Under the pieces are notes generated by a model, which was given only the letters and a program-made list of their open reading frames with translations, ran no database searches and had not been told where the DNA came from. 64,000 nt of DNA from Enterobacteria phage vB_EcoM_IME340, in the sequence record MH051916, one strand, 5' to 3'. Position 1 is the first letter of the stretch; the number at the start of each line of letters is the position of its first letter. Shown here piece by piece: positions 3,722-51,300 of the stretch. Position numbers and translations under genes: made by a program.

Positions 3722-4355
3722 ACGCTTTTTTCATGGCCTCTGCGAGAGCCATATAGGCGTCATCGGCACTTGTATCGGCTTCCGCCGTCTGTGATTCGGT
3801 AATTTCCTTAGGAGTTACCCATGCATCTGGAGCACTTGGACCCCATACTGCATCAACACCTACAGTTAATTTGAATCCTTCGTTTACGATACGATAACCT
3901 TTATTTGTGTCAGTCAATGAACCTAATCCACGAGAAGAAACTCCTGGAATCCATCCGGCACGAATATTAGCTGCTAATTTATCTCCAGGACCATGGTCAC
4001 CTTCAATAACACGAGCTCGTCCGTATACGTCATTTCCTTTCCACCACATATCTTCTATAATGATAGCGGCTTGCATCGGGTCAACATTAGCGCGTGGAGG
4101 ATGATTTAATTCTCCGAGAGCTTGTTTAGTTAAAACTTGCTCATTAATATAGTCTTTTACCGCTTTTTCTAATATACGTTTTGGATAAAGACGTTTATTT
4201 CTATTGACGACTTCCGCTTGCATGAATATTCCTTCGATGTATAAACCCGGTTTTAAACCTAAGTCTTTTCCATCATGAGATTCAAGCATTGGCACGCCAT
4301 CAATAATTTCGCCAGGTTGACCCCAAGTTTCAATTAGTAATTGGGGTTCATTCAT
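3717..4355 (-). CDS. 21: Prohead protease gp21
   Basis: 212 aa, same length as T4 gp21; position between 68 and 22. Confidence 0.9.
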   Translation of the reverse strand: MNEPQLLIETWGQPGEIIDGVPMLESHDGKDLGLKPGLYIEGIFMQAEVVNRNKRLYPKRILEKAVKDYINEQVLTKQALGELNHPPRANVDPMQAAIIIEDMWWKGNDVYGRARVIEGDHGPGDKLAANIRAGWIPGVSSRGLGSLTDTNKGYRIVNEGFKLTVGVDAVWGPSAPDAWVTPKEITESQTAEADTSADDAYMALAEAMKKAL

Positions 4356-4780
4356 TAGCTTAATCCTAATGCTTTACGGCGTTTAAGAGCTTTTTTACGC
4401 TTACGCTGAGCACGAGATTGGCCTGCTGGATTGGCAATCTTCGTTTTGGTAGCTTTACGAGCAATTTGTCTACGTTTTGCTTTAGACAGCCCAGTGGTTT
4501 GAAATGCATTACGTTCACGCGTTTTGCGGTCTTTGGTACGTGTAATTTCACCACGGGCGGAAACATGTTTAACGATAAATTCATTTAGCGGCATATTTTC
4601 ATTAATAGAAGCTAATGCAACCGCTAAATCAGTTTCATCATCAAGCATATTCTCGACAATTGTATTTATATCGTCTTTATTTAAAGCAGAAGACAATTCG
4701 TCAAAGCGACCCTGTGCTTCAGGAATAAGTGCTTCGACATTCTCGAGAACTAATTCATGAGTTTCAGGGATCAGAAGCAT
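4355..4780 (-). CDS. 68: Prohead core protein gp68
   Basis: 141 aa, basic C-terminus; T4 order 20-67-68-21. Confidence 0.8.
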
Positions 4781-5027
4781 TATTCATCATCCTCGTCTTC
4801 GTCATCTTCGTCAGAGTCTTTGTCTTTTTTGTCGTCTTTATCATCACCATCTTCGTCTTCGTCATCATCCTCGTCTTCAGGTTCTTCACCTTCGATTAAG
4901 AAATTACGAGCGATAGCGATTTTTTCTTCTTTAATTAAATCAATCGTTCTTGCAGCCATGGCTTCAGCAAATAATTTACGAGCGGCTACGAGGTCGTTTG
5001 ATTTAATAGCTTCAATTAAACCTTCCA

Positions 5028-5028
<1 letters not shown>
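4780..5028 (-). CDS. 67: Prohead core protein gp67 (acidic)
   Basis: 82 aa with poly-acidic tail [13 protein letters not shown]...; position after gene 20. Confidence 0.8.
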
Positions 5029-6653
<1,625 letters not shown>

Positions 6654-43569: not shown

Positions 43570-43932
43570 ATGAAAGCATATCAAATTCTTGAAGGCACGC
43601 ATAAAGGTACTATTTATTTTGAAGATGGTATTCAAGCACGAATTATTGTCTCTAAAACTTTTAAAGATGACTCTTTTGTAGACCCAGAAATTTTCTATGG
43701 TTTGCATGCCCGTGAAATTGAAATTGAAACACAACCTACAGTTAAAATTGAAGGTGGTCAACACCTGAACGTTAACGTTCTGCGTCGTGAAACTCTGGAA
43801 GATGCAGTTAAGCATCCGGAAAAATATCCGCAGCTGACCATCCGTGTATCCGGATATGCAGTTCGCTTTAACTCTCTGACTCCGGAACAGCAACGCGACG
43901 TTATTGCTCGTACCTTTACTGAGAGTTTGTAA
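43570..43932 (+). CDS. Autonomous glycyl-radical cofactor, GrcA/YfiD-like (T4 Y06I family)
   Basis: 120 aa; C-terminal [24 protein letters not shown] glycyl-radical motif. Confidence 0.85.
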
Positions 43933-44153
43933 TGGCAAAGATAATTATTGAAGGTTCTGAAGATGTGCTAAATGCTTTCGCCGAGTGGTTTAGTAATTCA
44001 GGCGAACAGCAATTTAATGAAGCGTGGAACATGGGTGATATTAGTGGAATTTATCCTACGACAGAAATTTCTGTTCAAGGATATGGAATTCATGAACCTA
44101 TTCGTTTAGTTGAATATGATTTGGGAACAGGTGAGGAAGTAAAATATGATTGA
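43932..44153 (+). CDS. Hypothetical protein
   Basis: 73 aa ORF, start overlaps the preceding stop. Confidence 0.5.
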   Translation: MAKIIIEGSEDVLNAFAEWFSNSGEQQFNEAWNMGDISGIYPTTEISVQGYGIHEPIRLVEYDLGTGEEVKYD

Positions 44154-44412
44154 AGACATTAAAGGTTATAAGCCACATACTGACGATAAAATCAGTAAAG
44201 TGAATGCTATCAAAGACGCTGAAGTTCGTTTAGGACTTATCTTTGATGCTTTATACGATGAATTCTGGGAAGCACTAGATAATTGTGAAGACTGTGAATT
44301 CGCGAAGAATTATGCTGAAAGCCTCGATCAGTTAACTATTGCTAAAACGAAACTCAAAGAAGCCAGTATGTGGGCTTGTCGTGCTGTGTTCCAACCAGAG
44401 GAAAAATATTAA
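44146..44412 (+). CDS. Hypothetical small helical protein (vs.4 position)
   Basis: 88 aa; coupled to neighbours. Confidence 0.5.
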
Positions 44413-44749: not shown

Positions 44750-45211
44750 ATGACTATCAACACAGAAGTTTTTATCCGTCGAAATAAGCTTCGTCGTCAC
44801 TTTGAGTCGGAGTTTCGTCAAATTAACAATGAGATTCATGAGGCATCAAAAGCAGCAGGAGTCTCATCGTTTCATCTAAAATATTCTCAACATCTTCTTG
44901 ATCGTGCAATTCAACGGGAGATTGATGAGACATATGTTTTTGAATTATTCCACAAAATAAAAGACCATGTTTTAGAAGTTAATGAATTCCTGAGTATGCC
45001 TCCGCGTCCTGACATTGATGAGGATTTTATTGATGGAGTTGAATATCGCCCTGGACGTTTAGAAATTACAGATGGAAATCTTTGGCTTGGATTTACGGTT
45101 TGTAAGCCTAATGAGAAGTTCAAAAACCCGTCACTTCAATGCAGGATGGCAATTATCAACAGTCGTCGTTTACCAGGAAAGGCTTCTAAAGCAGTAATTA
45201 AAACTCAATGA
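44750..45211 (+). CDS. regB: Site-specific endoribonuclease RegB
   Basis: 153 aa, same length as T4 RegB; basic N-terminus; expected position between vs genes and denV side. Confidence 0.8.
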   Translation: MTINTEVFIRRNKLRRHFESEFRQINNEIHEASKAAGVSSFHLKYSQHLLDRAIQREIDETYVFELFHKIKDHVLEVNEFLSMPPRPDIDEDFIDGVEYRPGRLEITDGNLWLGFTVCKPNEKFKNPSLQCRMAIINSRRLPGKASKAVIKTQ

Positions 45212-45218
45212 GGTAAGC

Positions 45219-45764
45219 ATGAGAAAAGCACTACTCGCTGGTCTATTGGCCATTTCAATGATGGCACATAGCTCCGAGCATACTTTCAGTAATGTCCAAC
45301 TCGATAACATGCGTTACGCATATCAATTCGGGGAACAATTTTCTAAGGATGGAAAATATAAAACACACAAAAATATCCACAAGAGTGGATTAGGTCATAT
45401 AATGGCTGCTATTTTATGGCAAGAAAGCTCTGCCGGAGTTAATTTAAAATCTAAACCAAAGCATCATGCCTATGGAATGTTCCAAAATTATTTGCCGACC
45501 ATGCGAGCAAGAGTTAAGGAACTTGGTTATAATATGACCGATGCTGAAATAAAAAGAATGTTGAATAAACGGTCCAATTCAGCTTCCTGGGCGTACATTG
45601 AACTTTCTTATTGGTTAAATATACATAAGGGCGATATAAGAAAGGCAATATCCTCTTATAATTCGGGATGGAATGTTAAAGCAGGTTCTAAATATGCTTC
45701 TGAAGTCCTAGAAAAGGCTAACTACCTTAAAAATAATAAACTGTTGGAAATAGTAAATGACTAA
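45219..45764 (+). CDS. Secreted lytic-transglycosylase-like protein (T4 vs.1 position)
   Basis: 181 aa; signal peptide MRKALLAGLLAISMMAHS; SLT-like motifs ILWQESS, YGMFQNY, SSYNSGWN. Confidence 0.7.
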   Translation: MRKALLAGLLAISMMAHSSEHTFSNVQLDNMRYAYQFGEQFSKDGKYKTHKNIHKSGLGHIMAAILWQESSAGVNLKSKPKHHAYGMFQNYLPTMRARVKELGYNMTDAEIKRMLNKRSNSASWAYIELSYWLNIHKGDIRKAISSYNSGWNVKAGSKYASEVLEKANYLKNNKLLEIVND

Positions 45765-46104
45765 AATTTTGGTTTTATGTATAGGATTAATTTCATTTTC
45801 TGCTTATGCGTCAGCAGATACATCATATACTGAAATTAGGGAGTATGTGAACCGCACTGCAGCGGATTATTGTGGGAAAAATAAAGCATGCCAAGCTGAA
45901 TTTGCGCAGAAATTAATATATGCATATAAAGACGGAGAAAGAGATAAATCAAGCAGATACAAAAACGATACATTATTAAAACGATATGCTAAAAAGTGGA
46001 ATACCCTAGAATGTTCAGTTGCGGAGGAAAAAGATAAAGCCGCTTGTCATTCAATGGTTGACCGTTTAGTAGATTCTTATAATCGAGGATTGAGTACTAG
46101 ATGA
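45757..46104 (+). CDS. vs: Valyl-tRNA synthetase modifier-like secreted protein
   Basis: 115 aa with signal peptide, same length and position as T4 vs. Confidence 0.6.
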   Translation: MTKILVLCIGLISFSAYASADTSYTEIREYVNRTAADYCGKNKACQAEFAQKLIYAYKDGERDKSSRYKNDTLLKRYAKKWNTLECSVAEEKDKAACHSMVDRLVDSYNRGLSTR

Positions 46105-46580
46105 TTGTAAAATATATCAAGGGCGATATTGTCGCCCTCTTTCTTGAAGGTAATATTATTGCGCACGGGTGTAACTGTTTTCATACAATGGGCAGTGGTG
46201 TAGCTGGTCAATTAGCAAGAGCCTATCCCAAAATTTTAGAAATAGATAAAACCACTACTGAGTACGGTTCTCGTGATAAATTAGGCGATATGTCTATTGT
46301 TTTTAAACATAAACCTAATGGGTTTGGCATATGTTATAACTTGTATACGCAATACGAACCAGGTCCTAATCTTGATTATGGTGCTTTAGTAAACTGCATG
46401 ATAGAATTAAATCTACAGGCAGAAACCCTTTTGTTTAAACCGGTAATTTACATTCCACGCATAGGTTGTGGTATTGCTGGCGGCGATTGGGATAAGGTTT
46501 CTAAATTAATCGACATGTTTACTCCTGATATTGATTTAATAGTGGTGGATTATGAAAGTACATTACCCACATCCGTTTGA
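46101..46580 (+). CDS. Macro-domain (ADP-ribose binding/processing) protein
   Basis: 159 aa; macro signatures IKGDIV...NIIAHGCNCFHTMGSGVAGQLARAYP and IPRIGCGIAGGDW. Confidence 0.75.
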   Translation: MIVKYIKGDIVALFLEGNIIAHGCNCFHTMGSGVAGQLARAYPKILEIDKTTTEYGSRDKLGDMSIVFKHKPNGFGICYNLYTQYEPGPNLDYGALVNCMIELNLQAETLLFKPVIYIPRIGCGIAGGDWDKVSKLIDMFTPDIDLIVVDYESTLPTSV

Positions 46581-46764: not shown

Positions 46765-46967
46765 GCCAAACTAGTATTCTTAAAAATGCCCACTGTGAAA
46801 AGTGTAAGTGGCCGGTTGTTTTTGCTTTATGTAACGATGAAATGGCTTGTGATTTCGATTATTGGTGCTATTGTTCTAATAAAGGATGCATCAATCATAA
46901 AGGTGAAGGATTTTATTCGGGATTTTATCCTTATCCAGATTTCGTTAAAGAAGGTAAACCGAAATGA
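46755..46967 (+). CDS. Cysteine-rich small protein (possible zinc binding)
   Basis: 70 aa with CEKCKW...CNDEMACDFDYWCYCSNKGC. Confidence 0.5.
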   Translation: MVMSQTSILKNAHCEKCKWPVVFALCNDEMACDFDYWCYCSNKGCINHKGEGFYSGFYPYPDFVKEGKPK

Positions 46968-47137
46968 ATAGTTCTGAGTTACAATATGAAGTGTTACGTG
47001 AACTTGATAATTTAATTGAACTCGCTGTTAATAAAGGTTTTGCCATTGGAATTGGTCAAAAAGATACTGATCATTTAACTGTGGAAATATTTAAGCAAAA
47101 GCGAATTATTTTAAAACTTCTGGAAATTAATATATGA
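46964..47137 (+). CDS. Small hypothetical protein
   Basis: 57 aa ORF (MNSSELQYEVLRELDNLIELAVNKGF...) overlapping the previous stop. Confidence 0.4.
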   Translation: MNSSELQYEVLRELDNLIELAVNKGFAIGIGQKDTDHLTVEIFKQKRIILKLLEINI

Positions 47138-47319
47138 GCCTAAGCAAAGAACAAAAAGACAAACTCTTTTCTCTTATCCACGAAATTATGGATAAAAATA
47201 GTGAATTGGAAAAAGTTTGTAATGAATGCGGTCCTTTTAGCGCAAATGAATATGAAGAACTTTCCAAAGAATTTGATAATAAAGAACAAGAACTCATTGA
47301 TTATATAAATTCCTTATGA
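47134..47319 (+). CDS. Small helical protein, ~60 aa paralog family member
   Basis: 61 aa; shares the pattern EQK..LF.L..EI...G...YEEL with five other ORFs. Confidence 0.5.
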   Translation: MSLSKEQKDKLFSLIHEIMDKNSELEKVCNECGPFSANEYEELSKEFDNKEQELIDYINSL

Positions 47320-47504
47320 TTACTCGCGAACAAAAGAACGAAATATTATTTTTAGTTGGTGAAATTATTAGTTTAGAAAAGGATTTGTCTTTTGAAATAT
47401 CTTCTGAATATGGAGATGCCGAAACATATTACGAATTAGTAAAATCTATCGATAAAGCTGAAAATGATTTAGAAACATATTTAGAAAATTTAACTAAGGA
47501 CTAA
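47316..47504 (+). CDS. Small helical protein, ~60 aa paralog family member
   Basis: 62 aa; paralog of 47134-47319. Confidence 0.5.
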   Translation: MITREQKNEILFLVGEIISLEKDLSFEISSEYGDAETYYELVKSIDKAENDLETYLENLTKD

Positions 47505-47505
47505 G

Positions 47506-48087
47506 ATGGCGAGTTTAATTTTTACTTATGCAGCAATGAATGCTGGAAAATCTGCTTCTCTTTTGACTGCTGCGCATAATTATAAAGAACGTGGAATGAG
47601 TGTATTAGTTCTTAAGCCTGCTATTGATACTCGCGATTCTGTCTGTGAAGTCGTTTCTCGCATTGGAATTAAACAGGAAGCGAATATTATTACAGATGAT
47701 ATGGATATTTTCGAGTTCTATAAATGGGCTGAAGCACAAAAAGATATTCATTGCGTATTTGTAGATGAAGCCCAGTTTTTAAAAACTGAACAAGTGCATC
47801 AATTGAGTCGAATTGTTGATACATATAATGTTCCTGTTATGGCTTATGGATTAAGGACTGATTTCGCTGGAAAATTGTTTGAAGGTTCTAAAGAACTTTT
47901 AGCGATTGCAGATAAACTTATTGAACTAAAGGCAGTTTGTCATTGCGGCAAAAAAGCGATTATGACAGCTCGATTGATGGAAGATGGAACACCAGTTAAA
48001 GAAGGTAATCAAATCTGTATTGGTGATGAAATTTATGTTTCTTTGTGTAGAAAACACTGGAACGAATTAACTAAAAAGCTCGGTTAG
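47506..48087 (+). CDS. tk: Thymidine kinase
   Basis: 193 aa; P-loop MNAGKSASLL and zinc-ribbon cysteines CHCGKKA...C; same length as T4 Tk. Confidence 0.95.
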   Translation: MASLIFTYAAMNAGKSASLLTAAHNYKERGMSVLVLKPAIDTRDSVCEVVSRIGIKQEANIITDDMDIFEFYKWAEAQKDIHCVFVDEAQFLKTEQVHQLSRIVDTYNVPVMAYGLRTDFAGKLFEGSKELLAIADKLIELKAVCHCGKKAIMTARLMEDGTPVKEGNQICIGDEIYVSLCRKHWNELTKKLG

Positions 48088-48129
48088 TGCAAAAGTTATA
48101 AATAGGTTTATCTAACTAAAGGGGTATAT

Positions 48130-48342
48130 ATGCTACAATTAACTGAAAAGCAACTTCGCAATCTTACTGTGCTTCAATTAGATGAAATTCGTAGGGAAGT
48201 TGGAAATATCATTTCAGCTTTGCGTCGAGAAGTATCACTCAACCAATCTCCGGCAGACTATACTAGATTGCGAAATTTTGAAAAATACCTTGATAAAGTT
48301 AAGGCCGTGCATCGGCATAAAGTAAATACAGGACAAAAATGA
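48130..48342 (+). CDS. Hypothetical small protein
   Basis: 70 aa ORF between tk and rI. Confidence 0.5.
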
Positions 48343-48354
48343 TAGGAGGCCTTT

Positions 48355-48648
48355 ATGGCCTTAAAAGCAACGGCACTTTTTGCCACGCTAGGATTGTCAT
48401 TTGTTTTATCTCCATCGATTGAAGCGAATGTCGATCCTCATTTTGATAAATTTATGGAATCTGGTATTAGGCACGTTTATACACTTTTTGAAAATAAAAG
48501 CGTAGAATCGTCTGAACAATTCTATAGTTTTATGAGAACGACCTATAAAAATGACCCGTGCTCTTCTGATTTTGAATGTATAGAACGAGGCGCGGAGATG
48601 GCACAATCATACGCTAGAATTATGAACATTAAATTGGAGACTGAATGA
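48355..48648 (+). CDS. rI: Lysis inhibition regulator (antiholin) RI
   Basis: 97 aa with N-terminal signal-anchor-release segment; same length and position as T4 RI. Confidence 0.78.
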   Translation: MALKATALFATLGLSFVLSPSIEANVDPHFDKFMESGIRHVYTLFENKSVESSEQFYSFMRTTYKNDPCSSDFECIERGAEMAQSYARIMNIKLETE

Positions 48649-49031
48649 AATTCAGCGACTTTTCACAAAGTGGAAAACCTTCAAAGGCAGATGAATACTT
48701 AGGTTTATTAATGGCTGCACAAGCTTATTTTCATTCTGCACATTTTGAAACTAAAAGTTATGCTAGACACAAAGCATACGATTTTATTTTCTCCGAGTTG
48801 CCAGATTTAATTGATAAATTTGGTGAGCAATATTTGGGGTATTCTGGTAGAAAATACACACCTTCAATTCCAGATGCCAGTAAACTTCCTACCGACACAA
48901 TTAAAATGATTGATCGCATACTAGACCAATCTAACAGCATTTATAAAGAAATGCCTCCAGCCATCCAAAGCACGATAGATGATATTACTGGAATGTTTTA
49001 CCAGAGTAAGTATCTTCTTTCCCTCGAATAA
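48645..49031 (+). CDS. Hypothetical protein (T4 rI.-1 position)
   Basis: 128 aa, stop-start overlap with rI. Confidence 0.6.
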
Positions 49032-49035
49032 CATT

Positions 49036-49059
49036 AGTCTCCTTCGGGAGACTTTTTTC
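49036..49059 (+). terminator. Rho-independent terminator
   Basis: agtctcc-ttcg-ggagact hairpin followed by tttttt. Confidence 0.75.
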
Positions 49060-49068
49060 ATTTTACCG

Positions 49069-49098
49069 GTTTACTTTCCGTTTGAGCTGTGGTACTAT
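49069..49098 (+). promoter_or_regulatory. T4 early promoter (gtttac / tactat)
   Basis: gtttac, 18 bp spacer, tgtggTACTATacaactatc, then gaggagaacatcATG. Confidence 0.65.
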
Positions 49099-49126
49099 AC
49101 AACTATCGGATAAAGAGGAGAACATC

Positions 49127-49315
49127 ATGAAAATTGAAGCACTCAATCAAGAAGGAAATATCTACGTCATCATTAACGGTGATTTTTTCGTCGACATGGA
49201 TGAAGTTACCAGTGAAGAACTTGAAGAACTTCTTAAGAAACGTTATGATATGTGTGATGAAGCTGCAACTCATATGGCGTGTGCAATATTCTCTCTTTCA
49301 TATGTGGTGGAATAA
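49127..49315 (+). CDS. Small acidic protein
   Basis: 62 aa from ATG at MKIEALNQ with GAGGAG SD. Confidence 0.5.
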
Positions 49316-49518
49316 TGATTAGTATCGAACAAGCAGATAAAATTAAAGAATTGGTAGCTTTAATTCGCAAAGCAGATGAGGAACTTAGTGACTTTGCTTG
49401 GTTTTCGGCAGGCATTGCAAATAAAGGTATTGAAGAATTTGAAGCTAAAGTTGATAATGCTGTAGAAGCTTTAGATATGTTTCTTGATGAAATTATCGAT
49501 CACAATACGAGAGTTTAA
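49315..49518 (+). CDS. Small helical protein, ~60 aa paralog family member
   Basis: 67 aa from ATG at [17 protein letters not shown]. Confidence 0.5.
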   Translation: MISIEQADKIKELVALIRKADEELSDFAWFSAGIANKGIEEFEAKVDNAVEALDMFLDEIIDHNTRV

Positions 49519-49520
49519 GT

Positions 49521-49715
49521 ATGCTGACACACGAACAGTTTGAAAAAATCATTAAATTAGCACGTGATGTTGAAATAGATTCATATCAATTAGCAGTTGA
49601 GCATTGTGAAGGATATTCATACGAAGGTATAGCAGCAGCTAAAAGAGATTTGGATAAATCTAAAGCTAAGTTAGTTCAATATCTTGAAATGATTAGGTGG
49701 AATAATGAAAACTGA
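49521..49715 (+). CDS. Small helical protein, ~60 aa paralog family member
   Basis: 64 aa (MLTHEQFEKIIKLARDV...). Confidence 0.5.
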   Translation: MLTHEQFEKIIKLARDVEIDSYQLAVEHCEGYSYEGIAAAKRDLDKSKAKLVQYLEMIRWNNEN

Positions 49716-49878
49716 AAAGCAGATGTTTTTAATGAAGCTAATTGAAGAATATGCTAATGCAGTTTCTGACTATGAGTGTTCTTCTCGTGAAAGGGGTATA
49801 GCTTTCGCAAAAGAAGAAATGAAAATCATGGTTGATGCTCACACAAAGCTTCAGAATTTTATTGAAAACGTCATTTAA
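49705..49878 (+). CDS. Small helical protein, ~60 aa paralog family member
   Basis: 57 aa ORF (MKTEKQMFLMKLIEEYANAV...) overlapping the previous stop; below the track threshold. Confidence 0.45.
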   Translation: MKTEKQMFLMKLIEEYANAVSDYECSSRERGIAFAKEEMKIMVDAHTKLQNFIENVI

Positions 49879-49880
49879 CG

Positions 49881-49910
49881 GTTTACAAGTTGGCAAGGTT
49901 ATGGTATAGT
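49881..49910 (+). promoter_or_regulatory. T4 early promoter (gtttac / tatagt)
   Basis: gtttac, 18 bp spacer, tggTATAGT. Confidence 0.55.
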
Positions 49911-49938
49911 AATCTTGTCAACTGCTAAGGAGAAGAGA

Positions 49939-50043
49939 ATGAAAATTTTGTTTGTTGTGTATGTGATGATTCAATATAATTACCCAATGTTTACGTATAA
50001 TTTGGTGAACAACATTATTGATATTATTCAAAGGAGTATGTAA
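49939..50043 (+). CDS. Very small hydrophobic ORF
   Basis: 34 aa (MKILFVVYVMIQYNYPMF...) with aaggagaagagaATG directly after the promoter. Confidence 0.3.
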   Translation: MKILFVVYVMIQYNYPMFTYNLVNNIIDIIQRSM

Positions 50044-50228
50044 TGACAAGTGAGCAGGCTTTTAAATTAAGAGAATTAATTGAGACGTATAGTAGAGCTG
50101 TTCATACATCAACAATTATTGATGAATCAGCTTTCTCCGGACATGCTAACAAGATTAAATACAAAACTCTTATGGAAGAAGCTAAAGTAAATCTTGATTC
50201 TTATATTGAAACTTTAATTGGTAAATAA
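50043..50228 (+). CDS. Small helical protein, ~60 aa paralog family member
   Basis: 61 aa (MTSEQAFKLRELIETYSRAV...). Confidence 0.5.
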   Translation: MTSEQAFKLRELIETYSRAVHTSTIIDESAFSGHANKIKYKTLMEEAKVNLDSYIETLIGK

Positions 50229-50229
50229 T

Positions 50230-50772
50230 ATGAAAGCTGTAATTGAAACAACTGATTTGTTCGGTGACCTGGTTATCGAAAAACGTGATAATGTATACGT
50301 TCTGACGCAGGAAGACGATAATATTACTATTCTTCCTATGGAACTGGCTGCGATTTTATCTTATGCTCCCTCAGGAGTTACCGGTGTAACTAATATTACA
50401 GGCGACCTCCAAGTTCGTTTTTATCGTGGCCTTTACGGCGGTAATATTGAAACTGAATTTATGTGTCTTTCTATCAACAATTGGGCAACATTCGTTACCA
50501 AGGTGAAAGAATTCTTGGAATCTGAAACAATCGAAACACCCGAAAAGGCTAAACTTCAATGGGCTAAAGATCGCGGTGCTAGCATTATTAATCCAGTAGC
50601 TGCAAATTATACTACGACTTTGGATGTCAAGACTTCTTATGAAGATGGCGATGTCGTACTTGTTCGCCAAATTGATGATTCTCGAGCACATATTGTCACA
50701 TTTACCAAAGACGAAGCTATTGCACTAAAGACTTATCTTGATTCTGTCATTCCAACTATGATTTCAAAGTGA
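50230..50772 (+). CDS. Hypothetical protein, tandem paralog 1
   Basis: 180 aa from ATG at MKAVIETTD; C-terminus KDEAIALKTYLDSVIPTM resembles the next ORF. Confidence 0.6.
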   Translation: MKAVIETTDLFGDLVIEKRDNVYVLTQEDDNITILPMELAAILSYAPSGVTGVTNITGDLQVRFYRGLYGGNIETEFMCLSINNWATFVTKVKEFLESETIETPEKAKLQWAKDRGASIINPVAANYTTTLDVKTSYEDGDVVLVRQIDDSRAHIVTFTKDEAIALKTYLDSVIPTMISK

Positions 50773-50778
50773 GGAAAT

Positions 50779-51300
50779 ATGTTTATTTCAAGTGGAAGTG
50801 GTTTAATTCGCGTTGAATTTAAAAATGACATCTTTCTTATTCAAGGAGATGATATTATTAAAATGAGTTATGACGAAATCAAGAAAATTTGTCATGCTCT
50901 TGAAAGTCATGGAAAAGTGAACGCTGTTATTGATATTGGCGATTTATGGGTGACACTTTATGAAGTATCCGAAGGATTTAACATTGAAGATGAAAATAAC
51001 ATTTTAGCTATTGATAAAAGAACTGATTTGTTTGATGTATTAAAAGCCTATGAGCAGTCAAATGGCGGAAGAAAAGCTGTATTGATTTATCAAAAACCGC
51101 ATTCATGTGGAACTGCTTCAATCATTTCAAATATTGAAGGCGAAGTTGATACTTATATGTGTGTTTTAAAAGCTGGTGGTGACCGTCATCCGGATTTTAT
51201 TTCTATTCGTCAAAACAATGAAGAAATTTCATTGTCAAAATCAGAAGCTGAAGCTATGATTAAGTATTTAACAACCGTTACGCCTTCAATGAAAGGATAA
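50779..51300 (+). CDS. Hypothetical protein, tandem paralog 2
   Basis: 173 aa; C-terminus KSEAEAMIKYLTTVTPSM resembles the previous ORF. Confidence 0.6.
   Translation: MFISSGSGLIRVEFKNDIFLIQGDDIIKMSYDEIKKICHALESHGKVNAVIDIGDLWVTLYEVSEGFNIEDENNILAIDKRTDLFDVLKAYEQSNGGRKAVLIYQKPHSCGTASIISNIEGEVDTYMCVLKAGGDRHPDFISIRQNNEEISLSKSEAEAMIKYLTTVTPSMKG

What the first reader, a model, noticed from the sequence alone, without database searches (positions are those of the whole stretch)
47134..50228. Dispersed family of about six ~60 aa helical paralogs
ORFs at 47134, 47316, 49315, 49521, 49705 and 50043 (57-67 aa) share a recognisable pattern: N-terminal [ST]xEQxxK[LI]xxL[IV], a central Gly, then EEL / Y[IL]ExL near the C-terminus. 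Otherwise they are divergent. 46964 and 48130 may be further members. Repeated duplication and divergence of a tiny helical protein flanking tk and rI suggests a family under diversifying selection, such as small inhibitors of host proteins.
Basis: seen in the sequence. Interest (0 to 1): 0.6.

Follow-up and report, generated by a model that had tools for sequence, protein, structure and literature searches.

The report
Six small helical-hairpin paralogs (DUF7438)
A T4-like phage carries six real, diverged copies of a 57-67 residue two-helix protein made early in infection; the family is already catalogued as Pfam DUF7438, and its function is still unknown.

Summary
The window is a Tequatrovirus (T4-like phage). 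The six ORFs are T4 genes Tk.2, Tk.1, MobD.4, MobD.3 and MobD.2a, plus an ORF that T4 lacks (RB18ORF101). All six match Pfam DUF7438 (PF24219) over their full length at 52-69 bits, against a cut-off of 25.

The similarity is not due to composition. It survives pairwise shuffles, leave-one-out HMMs and a cross-subgroup HMM. The two tentative extra members, 46964 (RB32ORF109c) and 48130 (rI.1), are not members, and neither are MobD.5 or MobD.2.

AlphaFold predicts an antiparallel two-helix hairpin (pLDDT 90). The conserved positions are the hydrophobic core plus an N-terminal T-x-E-Q motif. Most members are acidic.

The family is narrow. An exhaustive search of 1.84 billion representative proteins gave 39 hits, and the sampled contexts are all T4-like phages. 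Copy number varies between genomes (2-6) through loss, truncation, hybrid genes and loop indels.

Orthologues are under purifying selection (dN/dS about 0.05-0.4), so diversifying selection is not supported. Published T4 omics data detect MobD.3, MobD.4, Tk.1 and Tk.2 as proteins from early transcripts.

My best guess, which is inference only, is that these are oligomerising acidic hairpins that bind host or phage partners early in infection.

Interest is modest.

The parts
47134..47319 (+). Tk.2 orthologue, 61 aa, DUF7438 member. Its ATG overlaps the stop codon of the upstream ORF (ATGA).
   Evidence: Pfam PF24219 68.6 bits; phrog_653; identified from the RB18 and T4 annotation; AF2 hairpin with helices 5-30 and 37-60, pLDDT 90
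47316..47504 (+). Tk.1 orthologue, 62 aa, DUF7438 member. It lies in tandem with Tk.2 and overlaps it (ATGA).
   Evidence: PF24219 55.6 bits; Smith-Waterman z=9.5 against Tk.2; absent from several Tequatroviruses
49315..49518 (+). MobD.4 orthologue, 67 aa, the long-loop form. DUF7438 member.
   Evidence: PF24219 61.6 bits; loop-length variants of 60-67 aa in other phages
49521..49715 (+). MobD.3 orthologue, 64 aa, DUF7438 member
   Evidence: PF24219 56.8 bits; phrog_653
49705..49878 (+). MobD.2a orthologue, 57 aa and full length here (truncated to 38 aa in T4). DUF7438 member.
   Evidence: PF24219 52.4 bits; phrog_2758; 15.5 bits from the cross-subgroup HMM, reached by 0 of 1000 shuffles; T4 truncation
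50043..50228 (+). 'RB18ORF101' type, 61 aa, DUF7438 member. Absent from T4, HY01 and JE01. Mislabelled 'helicase loader' in public records.
   Evidence: PF24219 56.9 bits; phrog_4859, with cross-hits to phrog_653 at E 4.7e-5; 27.0 bits from the cross-subgroup HMM
49036..49059 (+). Intrinsic-terminator-like hairpin plus T run after rI.-1. It separates the tk-rI unit from the MobD.5-MobD.2a unit.
   Evidence: Terminator scan; sequence
49070..49098 (+). T4-early-type promoter-like element (TTTACT, 17 nt spacer with TGG, TACTAT) upstream of MobD.5, MobD.4, MobD.3 and MobD.2a
   Evidence: Read directly from the sequence. It did not pass the consensus scan. T4 early promoters are of the -35/TGn/-10 type (PMC2988021).
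49882..49910 (+). T4-early-type promoter-like element (TTTACA, 17 nt spacer with TGG, TATAGT) upstream of MobD.2, ORF101 and MobD.1
   Evidence: Promoter scan, 10 of 12 matches with TG; sequence

Best explanation
The six ORFs are paralogous members of the T4-like-phage family Pfam DUF7438. Each is an independently translated protein of 57-67 residues, expressed early and mostly acidic, that folds into an antiparallel two-helix hairpin.

Shown here:
- They are homologous to one another.
- They are predicted with high confidence to be hairpins.
- They evolve under purifying selection.
- Their copy number changes between genomes by duplication, loss, unequal crossover and loop indels.

Shown by others: in T4, four of them are detected as proteins made from early transcripts.

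Inferred mechanism: the conserved hydrophobic half near the termini (I/L11, L14, I/V15, hydrophobic 18, with L54, Y/F57, L/I58, L/I61) and the T-x-E-Q cap form a common scaffold. That scaffold probably self-associates into a Rop-like four-helix bundle, as homo- or hetero-dimers. The polar, fast-evolving, indel-prone half near the loop would give each paralog its own binding specificity for a host or phage protein during the first minutes of infection. On this view they are dispensable accessory modulators.

I put confidence in the identity (family and fold) at about 0.95. Confidence in the binding-module mechanism is about 0.35.
For: - Family membership: Pfam DUF7438 at 52-69 bits against a cut-off of 25; shuffle, leave-one-out and cross-subgroup tests; PHROG cross-hits.
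- Fold: AF2 pLDDT 90.2, helices 5-30 and 37-60. The best fold matches are generic hairpins that oligomerise, such as Rop, CsoR/FrmR and ZraP. In BFVD the best matches are uncharacterised 55-61 aa proteins of other T4-like phages.
- Conservation: a heptad-like core pattern plus T-x-E-Q; median family pI 4.4.
- Real genes: dN/dS 0.05-0.41; Shine-Dalgarno sites or ATGA coupling; in T4, MobD.3 and MobD.4 are classed as early RNA and early protein, and Tk.1 and Tk.2 as early RNA and middle protein (PMC9697503 Suppl. S2 and S4).
- Early expression: early-type promoter-like elements at 49070-49098 and 49882-49910.
- Faster, indel-prone tip: tip against base dN/dS is 0.35 against 0.15 for Tk.2 and 0.30 against 0.07 for MobD.4; loop variants and the divergent 'Tk.2b' allele differ mainly in the centre.
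- Accessory character: 2-6 copies per genome, truncations in T4 and JE01, ORF101 missing from T4, HY01 and JE01, and hybrid Tk.2/Tk.1 genes.
- Neighbourhood: Acb2/Tad1 (Vs.4) and a macro-domain gene lie in the same early region; T4 nrdC.5, in the neighbouring early region, counters Dsr1 (PMC9391042).
Against: - No partner, phenotype or structure exists for any member. No paper in the searched library names DUF7438, mobD.3 or mobD.4.
- A hairpin is too simple a fold for structural matches to carry functional meaning; every Foldseek E-value against the PDB is 0.47 or worse.
- The faster tip may reflect relaxed constraint on a loop rather than specificity. MobD.3 and MobD.2a show no tip-versus-base difference.
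- The T-x-E-Q motif could be only a helix cap.
Confidence: 0.4

Rival explanations
1. They are specifically counter-defence proteins. Each paralog would inhibit or act as a decoy for a different bacterial anti-phage system, and copy-number variation would reflect the defence repertoires of different hosts.
For: - The proteins are early-expressed, small and acidic, and vary in presence between phages.
- The same early region encodes Acb2/Tad1, and the neighbouring T4 early region holds the anti-Dsr1 gene nrdC.5 (PMC9391042).
Against: - There is no similarity to any known anti-defence family. Acb2 hairpin: hhalign 0.3%. Nothing found in the PDB.
- Orthologues are strongly conserved across hosts (Escherichia, Shigella, Yersinia, Salmonella, Citrobacter) with dN/dS below 0.4, which is not the arms-race signature.
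Confidence: 0.2
2. They serve a phage-internal role, for example as small adaptor or regulatory subunits of phage complexes (nucleotide metabolism around Tk, lysis-inhibition proteins rI, rI.1 and rI.-1, or early transcription), rather than acting on the host.
For: - Synteny with tk and rI is conserved in Tequatrovirus, Mosigvirus and Citrobacter phage Ursula.
- Purifying selection acts on the orthologues.
- The neighbour MobD.1 matches Pfam 'y05I-like putative transcription factor' domains.
Against: - T4 gene order rarely predicts function.
- Members are lost or truncated in viable phages (T4 mobD.2a; no Tk.1 in Sf22, F1, HY01, JE01 and PYPS2T), which argues against a core role.
Confidence: 0.15
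3. They are Rop-like nucleic-acid-binding four-helix bundles that regulate RNA.
For: They have the same size and hairpin architecture as Rop. A Rop mutant aligns with TM 0.82-0.87 (rank 42).
Against: - Five of the six have pI 4.2-5.3 with net charge -2 to -10; ORF101 has pI 6.1 and net charge -1. The family median pI is 4.4, and no conserved basic surface is seen.
- The Foldseek E-value for Rop is 3.2 and there is no sequence similarity.
Confidence: 0.04
4. The resemblance is an artefact of composition (AT-rich genome, helix-favouring residues), or the ORFs are not functional genes.
For: The proteins are short, helical and low in complexity. GC content is only 27-33% in this stretch.
Against: - Shuffle controls fail to reach the observed scores.
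- A curated Pfam model matches at 2-3 times its cut-off.
- dN/dS is well below 1.
- Four T4 orthologues have been detected as proteins.
Confidence: 0.01

Closest known systems
Pfam PF24219 (DUF7438); PHROGs phrog_653, phrog_2758 and phrog_4859
   Same: All six ORFs are full-length members above the curated cut-off. The family has the same length (57 profile positions) and the same T4-like phage distribution.
   Different: Nothing differs, so this is the family. PHROGs splits it into three groups. Neither resource assigns a credible function. The phrog_4859 label 'helicase loader' has no support here.
Rop/ROM (ColE1 repressor of primer), and other hairpins that pair into four-helix bundles (CsoR/FrmR, the DHp domains of histidine kinases)
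   Same: A helix-loop-helix hairpin of about 60 residues with a heptad-like hydrophobic core. Structural superposition gives TM 0.8-0.87.
   Different: No sequence relationship (Foldseek E-values of 0.9 or worse; PDB profile search best E 0.11). The proteins are acidic rather than RNA-binding. Dimerisation is untested.
Acb2/Tad1 hairpin domain (T4 Vs.4), encoded about 2.7 kb upstream at 44146-44412
   Same: A small helical-hairpin early protein of T4-like phages in the same transcription region.
   Different: The profile comparison gives 0.3% probability, and there is no Pfam cross-hit. It is not homologous at any detectable level.
RB32ORF109c / phrog_3452 (46964-47137) and rI.1 / PF26904 (48130-48342)
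   Same: Neighbouring early ORFs of 57-70 aa. ORF109c is also predicted to be a two-helix hairpin (pLDDT 83.5) and is translationally coupled to Tk.2.
   Different: No sequence or profile similarity (hhalign 0.6% and 3.2%). The fold hits for ORF109c do not overlap those of the Tk.2 model.

Membership tests
Pfam DUF7438 (PF24219) | Full-length match to the family HMM above the gathering score (25 bits) | tested here: met
   The six ORFs score 52.4-68.6 bits and cover profile positions 1-57. ORFs 46964, 48130, 49127 and 49939 give no match.
Pfam DUF7438 (PF24219) | Homology that does not depend on the member itself being in the model | tested here: met
   Leave-one-out HMMs give 12.5-27.4 bits, reached by 0-1 of 500 shuffles. 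The cross-subgroup HMM gives ORF101 27.0 bits and MobD.2a 15.5 bits, reached by 0 of 1000 shuffles. PHROG cross-hits: ORF101 to phrog_653 at E 4.7e-5, MobD.4 to phrog_4859 at E 7.8e-6.
Pfam DUF7438 (PF24219) | Single-domain protein of about 55-67 aa from T4-like phages (Straboviridae) | tested here: met
   There are 110 clusters at 90% identity, all orthologues of the six and mostly on contigs of about 165-170 kb. The exhaustive search gave 39 representatives, nearly all about 60 aa. Members are present in Mosigvirus and in Citrobacter phage Ursula.
Rop-like four-helix-bundle dimers | Antiparallel helix-loop-helix monomer | tested here: met
   The AF2 model has helices 5-30 and 37-60 with pLDDT 90. 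TM to a Rop mutant is 0.82-0.87.
Rop-like four-helix-bundle dimers | Homodimerisation into a four-helix bundle | not testable with these tools
Rop-like four-helix-bundle dimers | Sequence homology to Rop, or RNA binding | tested here: not met
   Foldseek E 3.2, no PDB sequence or profile hit, and acidic pI.
Armadillo repeat | Three-helix repeat of about 42 residues with a significant per-repeat match | tested here: not met
   MobD.4 alone hits designed ARM proteins at whole-sequence E 1e-8, but no single stretch passes. Smith-Waterman z is 7.3 for MobD.4 and 1.0 or below for the other five. A Gumbel estimate gives P of about 5e-5, which over 177,635 sequences is E of about 10. The family model (AF2 of Tk.2) has two helices, not three.
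Acb2/Tad1 hairpin domain (PF24729) | Match to the family profile or sequence | tested here: not met
   No Pfam hit at E up to 1. hhalign against the window's own Acb2 gives 0.3%.
'Helicase loader' (label of phrog_4859 in public records) | Similarity to a helicase-loading protein family | tested here: not met
   Pfam and NCBIfam scans of ORF101 return only DUF7438. The label appears to be an annotation artefact.
'Molybdopterin-guanine dinucleotide biosynthesis protein MobD' (RefSeq label) | Similarity to Mob proteins of molybdenum-cofactor synthesis | tested here: not met
   There is no such Pfam or NCBIfam match. In T4, 'mobD' is the name of a homing endonuclease gene, and the label is a wrong expansion of that gene name.

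The most novel reading that the evidence does not exclude
The six hairpins could form a combinatorial system. A conserved 'base' would mediate homo- and hetero-oligomerisation, or docking on one common partner. The variable loop-proximal 'tips' would recognise different host targets, for example defence proteins. Phages would then tune host range by gaining, losing, recombining (Tk.2/Tk.1 hybrids) and re-looping (MobD.4 indels) the copies.
Probability: 0.12. Interest if true: 0.6.

Novelty: already known. Interest (0 to 1): 0.3.

Why it matters
About half of T4's genes still have no known function, and many are tiny early ORFs like these. One scaffold has been kept in up to six copies, conserved across Tequatrovirus and Mosigvirus and present in a more distant Straboviridae phage, and it is translated early. 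That makes it a compact target for functional work: a deletion series, pull-downs and multimer modelling. If the copies prove to be host- or defence-directed binders, this would add a multi-copy module to the T4 takeover or counter-defence toolkit. As it stands, the finding mainly confirms an existing database family. It also corrects misleading public labels ('helicase loader', 'molybdopterin... MobD').

Tried and rejected
1. ORF 46964 (RB32ORF109c) as a member. It scores 0.4 bits against the six-member HMM and 0.6% in hhalign. It is predicted to be a hairpin, but its fold hits differ from those of the Tk.2 model. Rejected.

2. rI.1 (48130) as a member. It scores 1.5 bits and 3.2% in hhalign, and it has its own Pfam family, PF26904. 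Rejected.

3. MobD.5 and MobD.2 as members. They give no Pfam or HMM signal. Rejected.

4. Armadillo-repeat lead from a PDB sequence search with MobD.4. The score is inflated by summing over identical repeats, the match is at chance level for the database size, it is seen for only one paralog, and the family model (AF2 of Tk.2) has two helices. Rejected.

5. Relationship to the nearby Acb2/Tad1 hairpin. hhalign gives 0.3%. Rejected.

6. Specific structural homologues in the PDB or BFVD. Only generic hairpins and uncharacterised T4-like phage proteins were found.

7. Literature on function. Searches for DUF7438, mobD.x, accession numbers, T4 ORFan toxicity screens and interactome studies found nothing about these genes beyond expression classes.

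8. Linked homodimer AlphaFold run.

9. Additional members elsewhere in the window. None were found.

10. Informative domain fusions. Only two apparent read-through or assembly chimeras turned up, P0048 and P0083.

11. hhalign between narrow orthologue-group profiles. It gave only moderate probabilities (43-79% within subgroups, below 5% between subgroups). I relied on the HMM and shuffle tests to link the subgroups.


Full report
**Identity of the region**

The stretch 46900-50300 is 97-98% identical to many Tequatrovirus genomes, including AV119, RB18, RB27 and T6. In all, 548 phage records match it. The + strand of the window corresponds to the T4 early-gene strand.

I mapped the ORFs using the RB18 and T4 annotations:

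| Window start | Gene |
|---|---|
| 46964 | RB32ORF109c |
| 47134 | Tk.2 |
| 47316 | Tk.1 |
| 47506 | tk |
| 48130 | rI.1 |
| 48355 | rI |
| 48645 | rI.-1 |
| 49127 | MobD.5 |
| 49315 | MobD.4 |
| 49521 | MobD.3 |
| 49705 | MobD.2a |
| 49939 | MobD.2 |
| 50043 | 'RB18ORF101' (absent from T4) |
| 50230 | MobD.1 |

Yes. All six named ORFs match one curated Pfam model, DUF7438 (PF24219). The matches run from end to end at 52-69 bits, against a gathering cut-off of 25. ORFs 46964, 48130, 49127 and 49939 do not match.

Pfam's seed alignment may already contain these proteins, so I ran tests that do not depend on Pfam.

- Pairwise Smith-Waterman scores against 1000 shuffles form a connected graph with z from 3.5 to 9.5.
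- Leave-one-out HMMs built from five of the window's copies score the sixth at 12.5-27.4 bits, and 0-1 of 500 shuffles reach that score.
- An HMM built from 38 family sequences, excluding everything of the MobD.2a or ORF101 type, still scores ORF101 at 27.0 bits and MobD.2a at 15.5 bits. No shuffle out of 1000 reaches either.
- PHROGs splits the six into three groups, but there are significant cross-hits between the groups.
- hhalign between narrow orthologue-group profiles is only moderate: 43-79% within subgroups and below 5% between them. The link between subgroups therefore rests on the HMM tests and the PHROG cross-hits.

The frequencies are T/S4 95%, E6 91%, Q7 88%, I/L11 100%, L14 93%, central G 51%, L54 93%, Y/F57 100% and L/I61 96%.

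**The tentative extra members**

ORF109c and rI.1 are not members. Their scores against the six-member HMM are at shuffle level. Profile-profile probabilities are 0.6% and 3.2%. rI.1 has its own Pfam family, PF26904.

ORF109c is also predicted to be a two-helix hairpin (pLDDT 83.5). Its structural neighbours are unrelated to those of the Tk.2 model. At most it is a structural analogue.

No other member occurs anywhere in the 64 kb window.

**What the proteins look like**

AlphaFold2, run on Tk.2 with a 29-sequence family alignment, gives a confident antiparallel hairpin: pLDDT 90.2, helices 5-30 and 37-60.

The conserved columns follow a heptad-like hydrophobic pattern on both helices. The only strongly conserved polar residues are T-x-E-Q at the start of helix 1 and E/D59 near the C-terminus. 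In a hairpin, both of these lie at the open, termini end.

The hydrophobic stripe is wider at that end (L11 F12 L14 I15 I18 M19 and L54 I55 Y57 I58 L61 in Tk.2). The half near the loop is polar and variable.

Most members are acidic, with a family median pI of 4.4. Among the window's copies, pI runs from 4.2 to 6.1.

Fold searches return only generic hairpins: Rop, CsoR/FrmR, ZraP and DHp domains. All E-values against the PDB are 0.47 or worse. Against viral models, the best hits are uncharacterised 55-61 aa proteins from other T4-like genera.

A PDB sequence hit of MobD.4 to designed Armadillo repeats turned out to be inflated by summing over identical repeats. It is at chance level for the database size, and it is absent for the other five paralogs.

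**Distribution and dynamics**

A word-indexed search of 5.8 billion proteins found 110 clusters. All of them are close orthologues of the six, and most lie on contigs of about 165-170 kb. An exhaustive HMM search of 1.84 billion representatives found only 39 hits. Nearly all are about 60 aa, and two are spurious repeat proteins.

Copy number varies between phages:

| Phage | Copies | Notes |
|---|---|---|
| this window, T6, RB18, RB14 | 6 | |
| T4 | 5 | mobD.2a truncated to 38 aa; no ORF101 |
| slur08 | 5 | |
| Sf22, F1, PYPS2T | 5 | single 'Tk.2b' upstream of tk; no Tk.1 |
| HY01, JE01 | 4 | 'Tk.2b'; no Tk.1 and no ORF101; MobD.2a truncated in JE01 |
| Mosigvirus PNJ-9 | 4 | two before tk, two after rI |
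| Citrobacter phage Ursula | 2 | tandem, at the syntenic site before tk |

Upstream of tk there are two haplotypes. One is the Tk.2 plus Tk.1 pair. The other is a single divergent 'Tk.2b' gene.

Hybrid genes with a Tk.2 N-terminus and a Tk.1 C-terminus exist (P0050, P0097). They suggest unequal crossover between the tandem copies. MobD.4 occurs with loops that give total lengths of 60, 62, 63, 65 and 67 aa.

**Selection**

Nei-Gojobori dN/dS was computed over 12 loci.

| Gene | dN/dS |
|---|---|
| Tk.2 | 0.21-0.24 |
| MobD.4 | 0.17 |
| MobD.3 | 0.05-0.16 |
| MobD.2a | 0.12-0.14 |
| ORF101 | 0.33-0.41 (few substitutions) |
| tk (neighbour) | 0.02-0.06 |
| rI (neighbour) | 0.11-0.16 |
| tk.4 (neighbour) | 0.21-0.24 |
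| MobD.1 (neighbour) | 0.36-0.38 |

I also split each protein into a loop-proximal 'tip' and a termini-proximal 'base'. The tip evolves faster in Tk.2 (0.35 against 0.15) and in MobD.4 (0.30 against 0.07). It does not in MobD.3 or MobD.2a, and it is never above 1 where there are enough substitutions to judge.

So these are functional genes under purifying selection. Gene-wide diversifying selection is not supported. Site-specific positive selection in the loop has not been excluded.

**Expression**

After rI.-1 there is a terminator-like hairpin at 49036-49059.

Two promoter-like elements of the T4 early type (-35 / TGn / -10) follow:
- 49070-49098, upstream of MobD.5, MobD.4, MobD.3 and MobD.2a.
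- 49882-49910, upstream of MobD.2, ORF101 and MobD.1.

The second was found by the consensus scan. The first I read from the sequence, and it did not pass the scan. The promoter architecture follows PMC2988021.

The genes are tightly packed, with Shine-Dalgarno sites or ATGA overlaps.

In T4, a time-resolved omics study classifies mobD.3 and mobD.4 as early RNA and early protein, and tk.1 and tk.2 as early RNA and middle protein. At least four orthologues are therefore translated (PMC9697503, Suppl. S2 and S4).

**Context**

The same early region of the window encodes Acb2/Tad1 (Vs.4, 44146-44412), RegB, an SLT-domain protein and the Tk.4 macro-domain protein. In T4, the neighbouring early gene nrdC.5 counters the Dsr1 defence system (PMC9391042).

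This makes a host-directed or counter-defence role plausible, but it is only circumstantial. DUF7438 shows no detectable relationship to Acb2.

**Mechanism: what is shown and what is inferred**

Shown here: the six are homologous, they are predicted to be hairpins, they are under purifying selection, and their copy number is plastic. Early transcription and translation are shown for the T4 orthologues by published omics data.

Inferred: the conserved hydrophobic end near the termini probably drives self-association into a four-helix bundle. This rests on analogy with Rop-type hairpins, and on a hydrophobic stripe wider than a two-helix hairpin needs. The variable tip would provide partner specificity for each paralog. 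The partners are unknown.

The rival readings, with the probabilities I assign, are:
- dedicated counter-defence proteins (0.2);
- phage-internal adaptors (0.15);
- Rop-like RNA binders (0.04, disfavoured by the acidity);
- an artefact of composition (refuted).

**Comparison with what is known, and novelty**

The family is exactly Pfam DUF7438 and PHROGs 653, 2758 and 4859. The paralogy is therefore already recorded, though no function is.

The public labels 'helicase loader' and 'molybdopterin-guanine dinucleotide biosynthesis protein MobD' on these ORFs have no support.

No paper in the searchable library discusses the family.

**Verdict**

Interest is modest (0.3).

Noticed in passing
window 50230-50772 and 50779-51300: MobD.1 and the next ORF (RB32ORF097c type) are adjacent paralogs, 29% identical with E 2e-8. 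MobD.1 matches the Pfam T4_y05I_N and T4_y05I_C domains ('putative transcription factor'). This is a second tandem duplication directly downstream of the hairpin cluster.
   Followed up: partly
window 46101-46580: The Tk.4 macro-domain gene is of the 159 aa allele type found in Sf22, F1, HY01 and JE01. Its similarity-score ratio to the 155 aa allele of T4, T6, RB18 and RB14 is only about 0.58. The region is therefore an allelic mosaic.
   Followed up: partly
window 44146-44412: This ORF encodes an Acb2/Tad1 hairpin-domain protein (PF24729, 70.6 bits), which from memory is the T4 Vs.4 anti-CBASS sponge family. It lies 2.7 kb upstream of Tk.2. RegB (44750-45211), an SLT-domain protein (45219-45764) and a glycyl-radical domain ORF (43570-43932) are nearby.
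   Followed up: partly
window 46964-47137: RB32ORF109c (phrog_3452) is predicted to be a two-helix hairpin of similar size and is translationally coupled to Tk.2, but shows no detectable homology to DUF7438. T4 has no ORF at this position. Ursula has a homologue at the same position, and slur08 and Sf22 carry a divergent allele.
   Followed up: yes
L006, L008-L012 (slur08, Sf22, F1, HY01, JE01, PYPS2T), upstream of tk; proteins P0050 and P0097: There are two haplotypes upstream of tk: the Tk.2 plus Tk.1 pair, or a single divergent 'Tk.2b' that differs mainly in the loop-proximal half. Separately, hybrid genes with a Tk.2 N-terminus and a Tk.1 C-terminus exist, which looks like unequal crossover between the tandem paralogs.
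   Followed up: partly
L005 (Mosigvirus PNJ-9) 3793-4372 compared with 4374-5195: In PNJ-9, Tk.3, Tk.2 and Tk.1 are 96-99% similar in score to the Tequatrovirus proteins, with almost no synonymous divergence for Tk.1. The adjacent tk (0.81) and rI.1 (0.60) are diverged. This suggests recent exchange of this block between genera.
   Followed up: no
public records AP018814.1, NC_054900.1, NC_000866.4 and others, aligned to window 46964-50772: Misleading product names are attached to these small ORFs: 'helicase loader' (ORF101), 'molybdopterin-guanine dinucleotide biosynthesis protein MobD' (MobD.4, and in some records MobD.3, MobD.5 or MobD.1), and 'rI antiholin', 'kilA anti-repressor' and 'tail assembly protein'. 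None is supported by the Pfam or NCBIfam scans.
   Followed up: yes
L003 (T4) 5550-5666 on the minus strand; L011 (JE01) 4107-4238: MobD.2a is truncated in T4 (38 aa) and in JE01 (43 aa) but full length (57 aa) in this window and most relatives. The T4 reference therefore probably carries a decayed copy.
   Followed up: partly
window 49315-49518: MobD.4 alone shows an unexpectedly good local alignment to the designed Armadillo-repeat consensus (Smith-Waterman z=7.3). I judge it to be chance at database scale, and the other five paralogs do not share it.
   Followed up: yes
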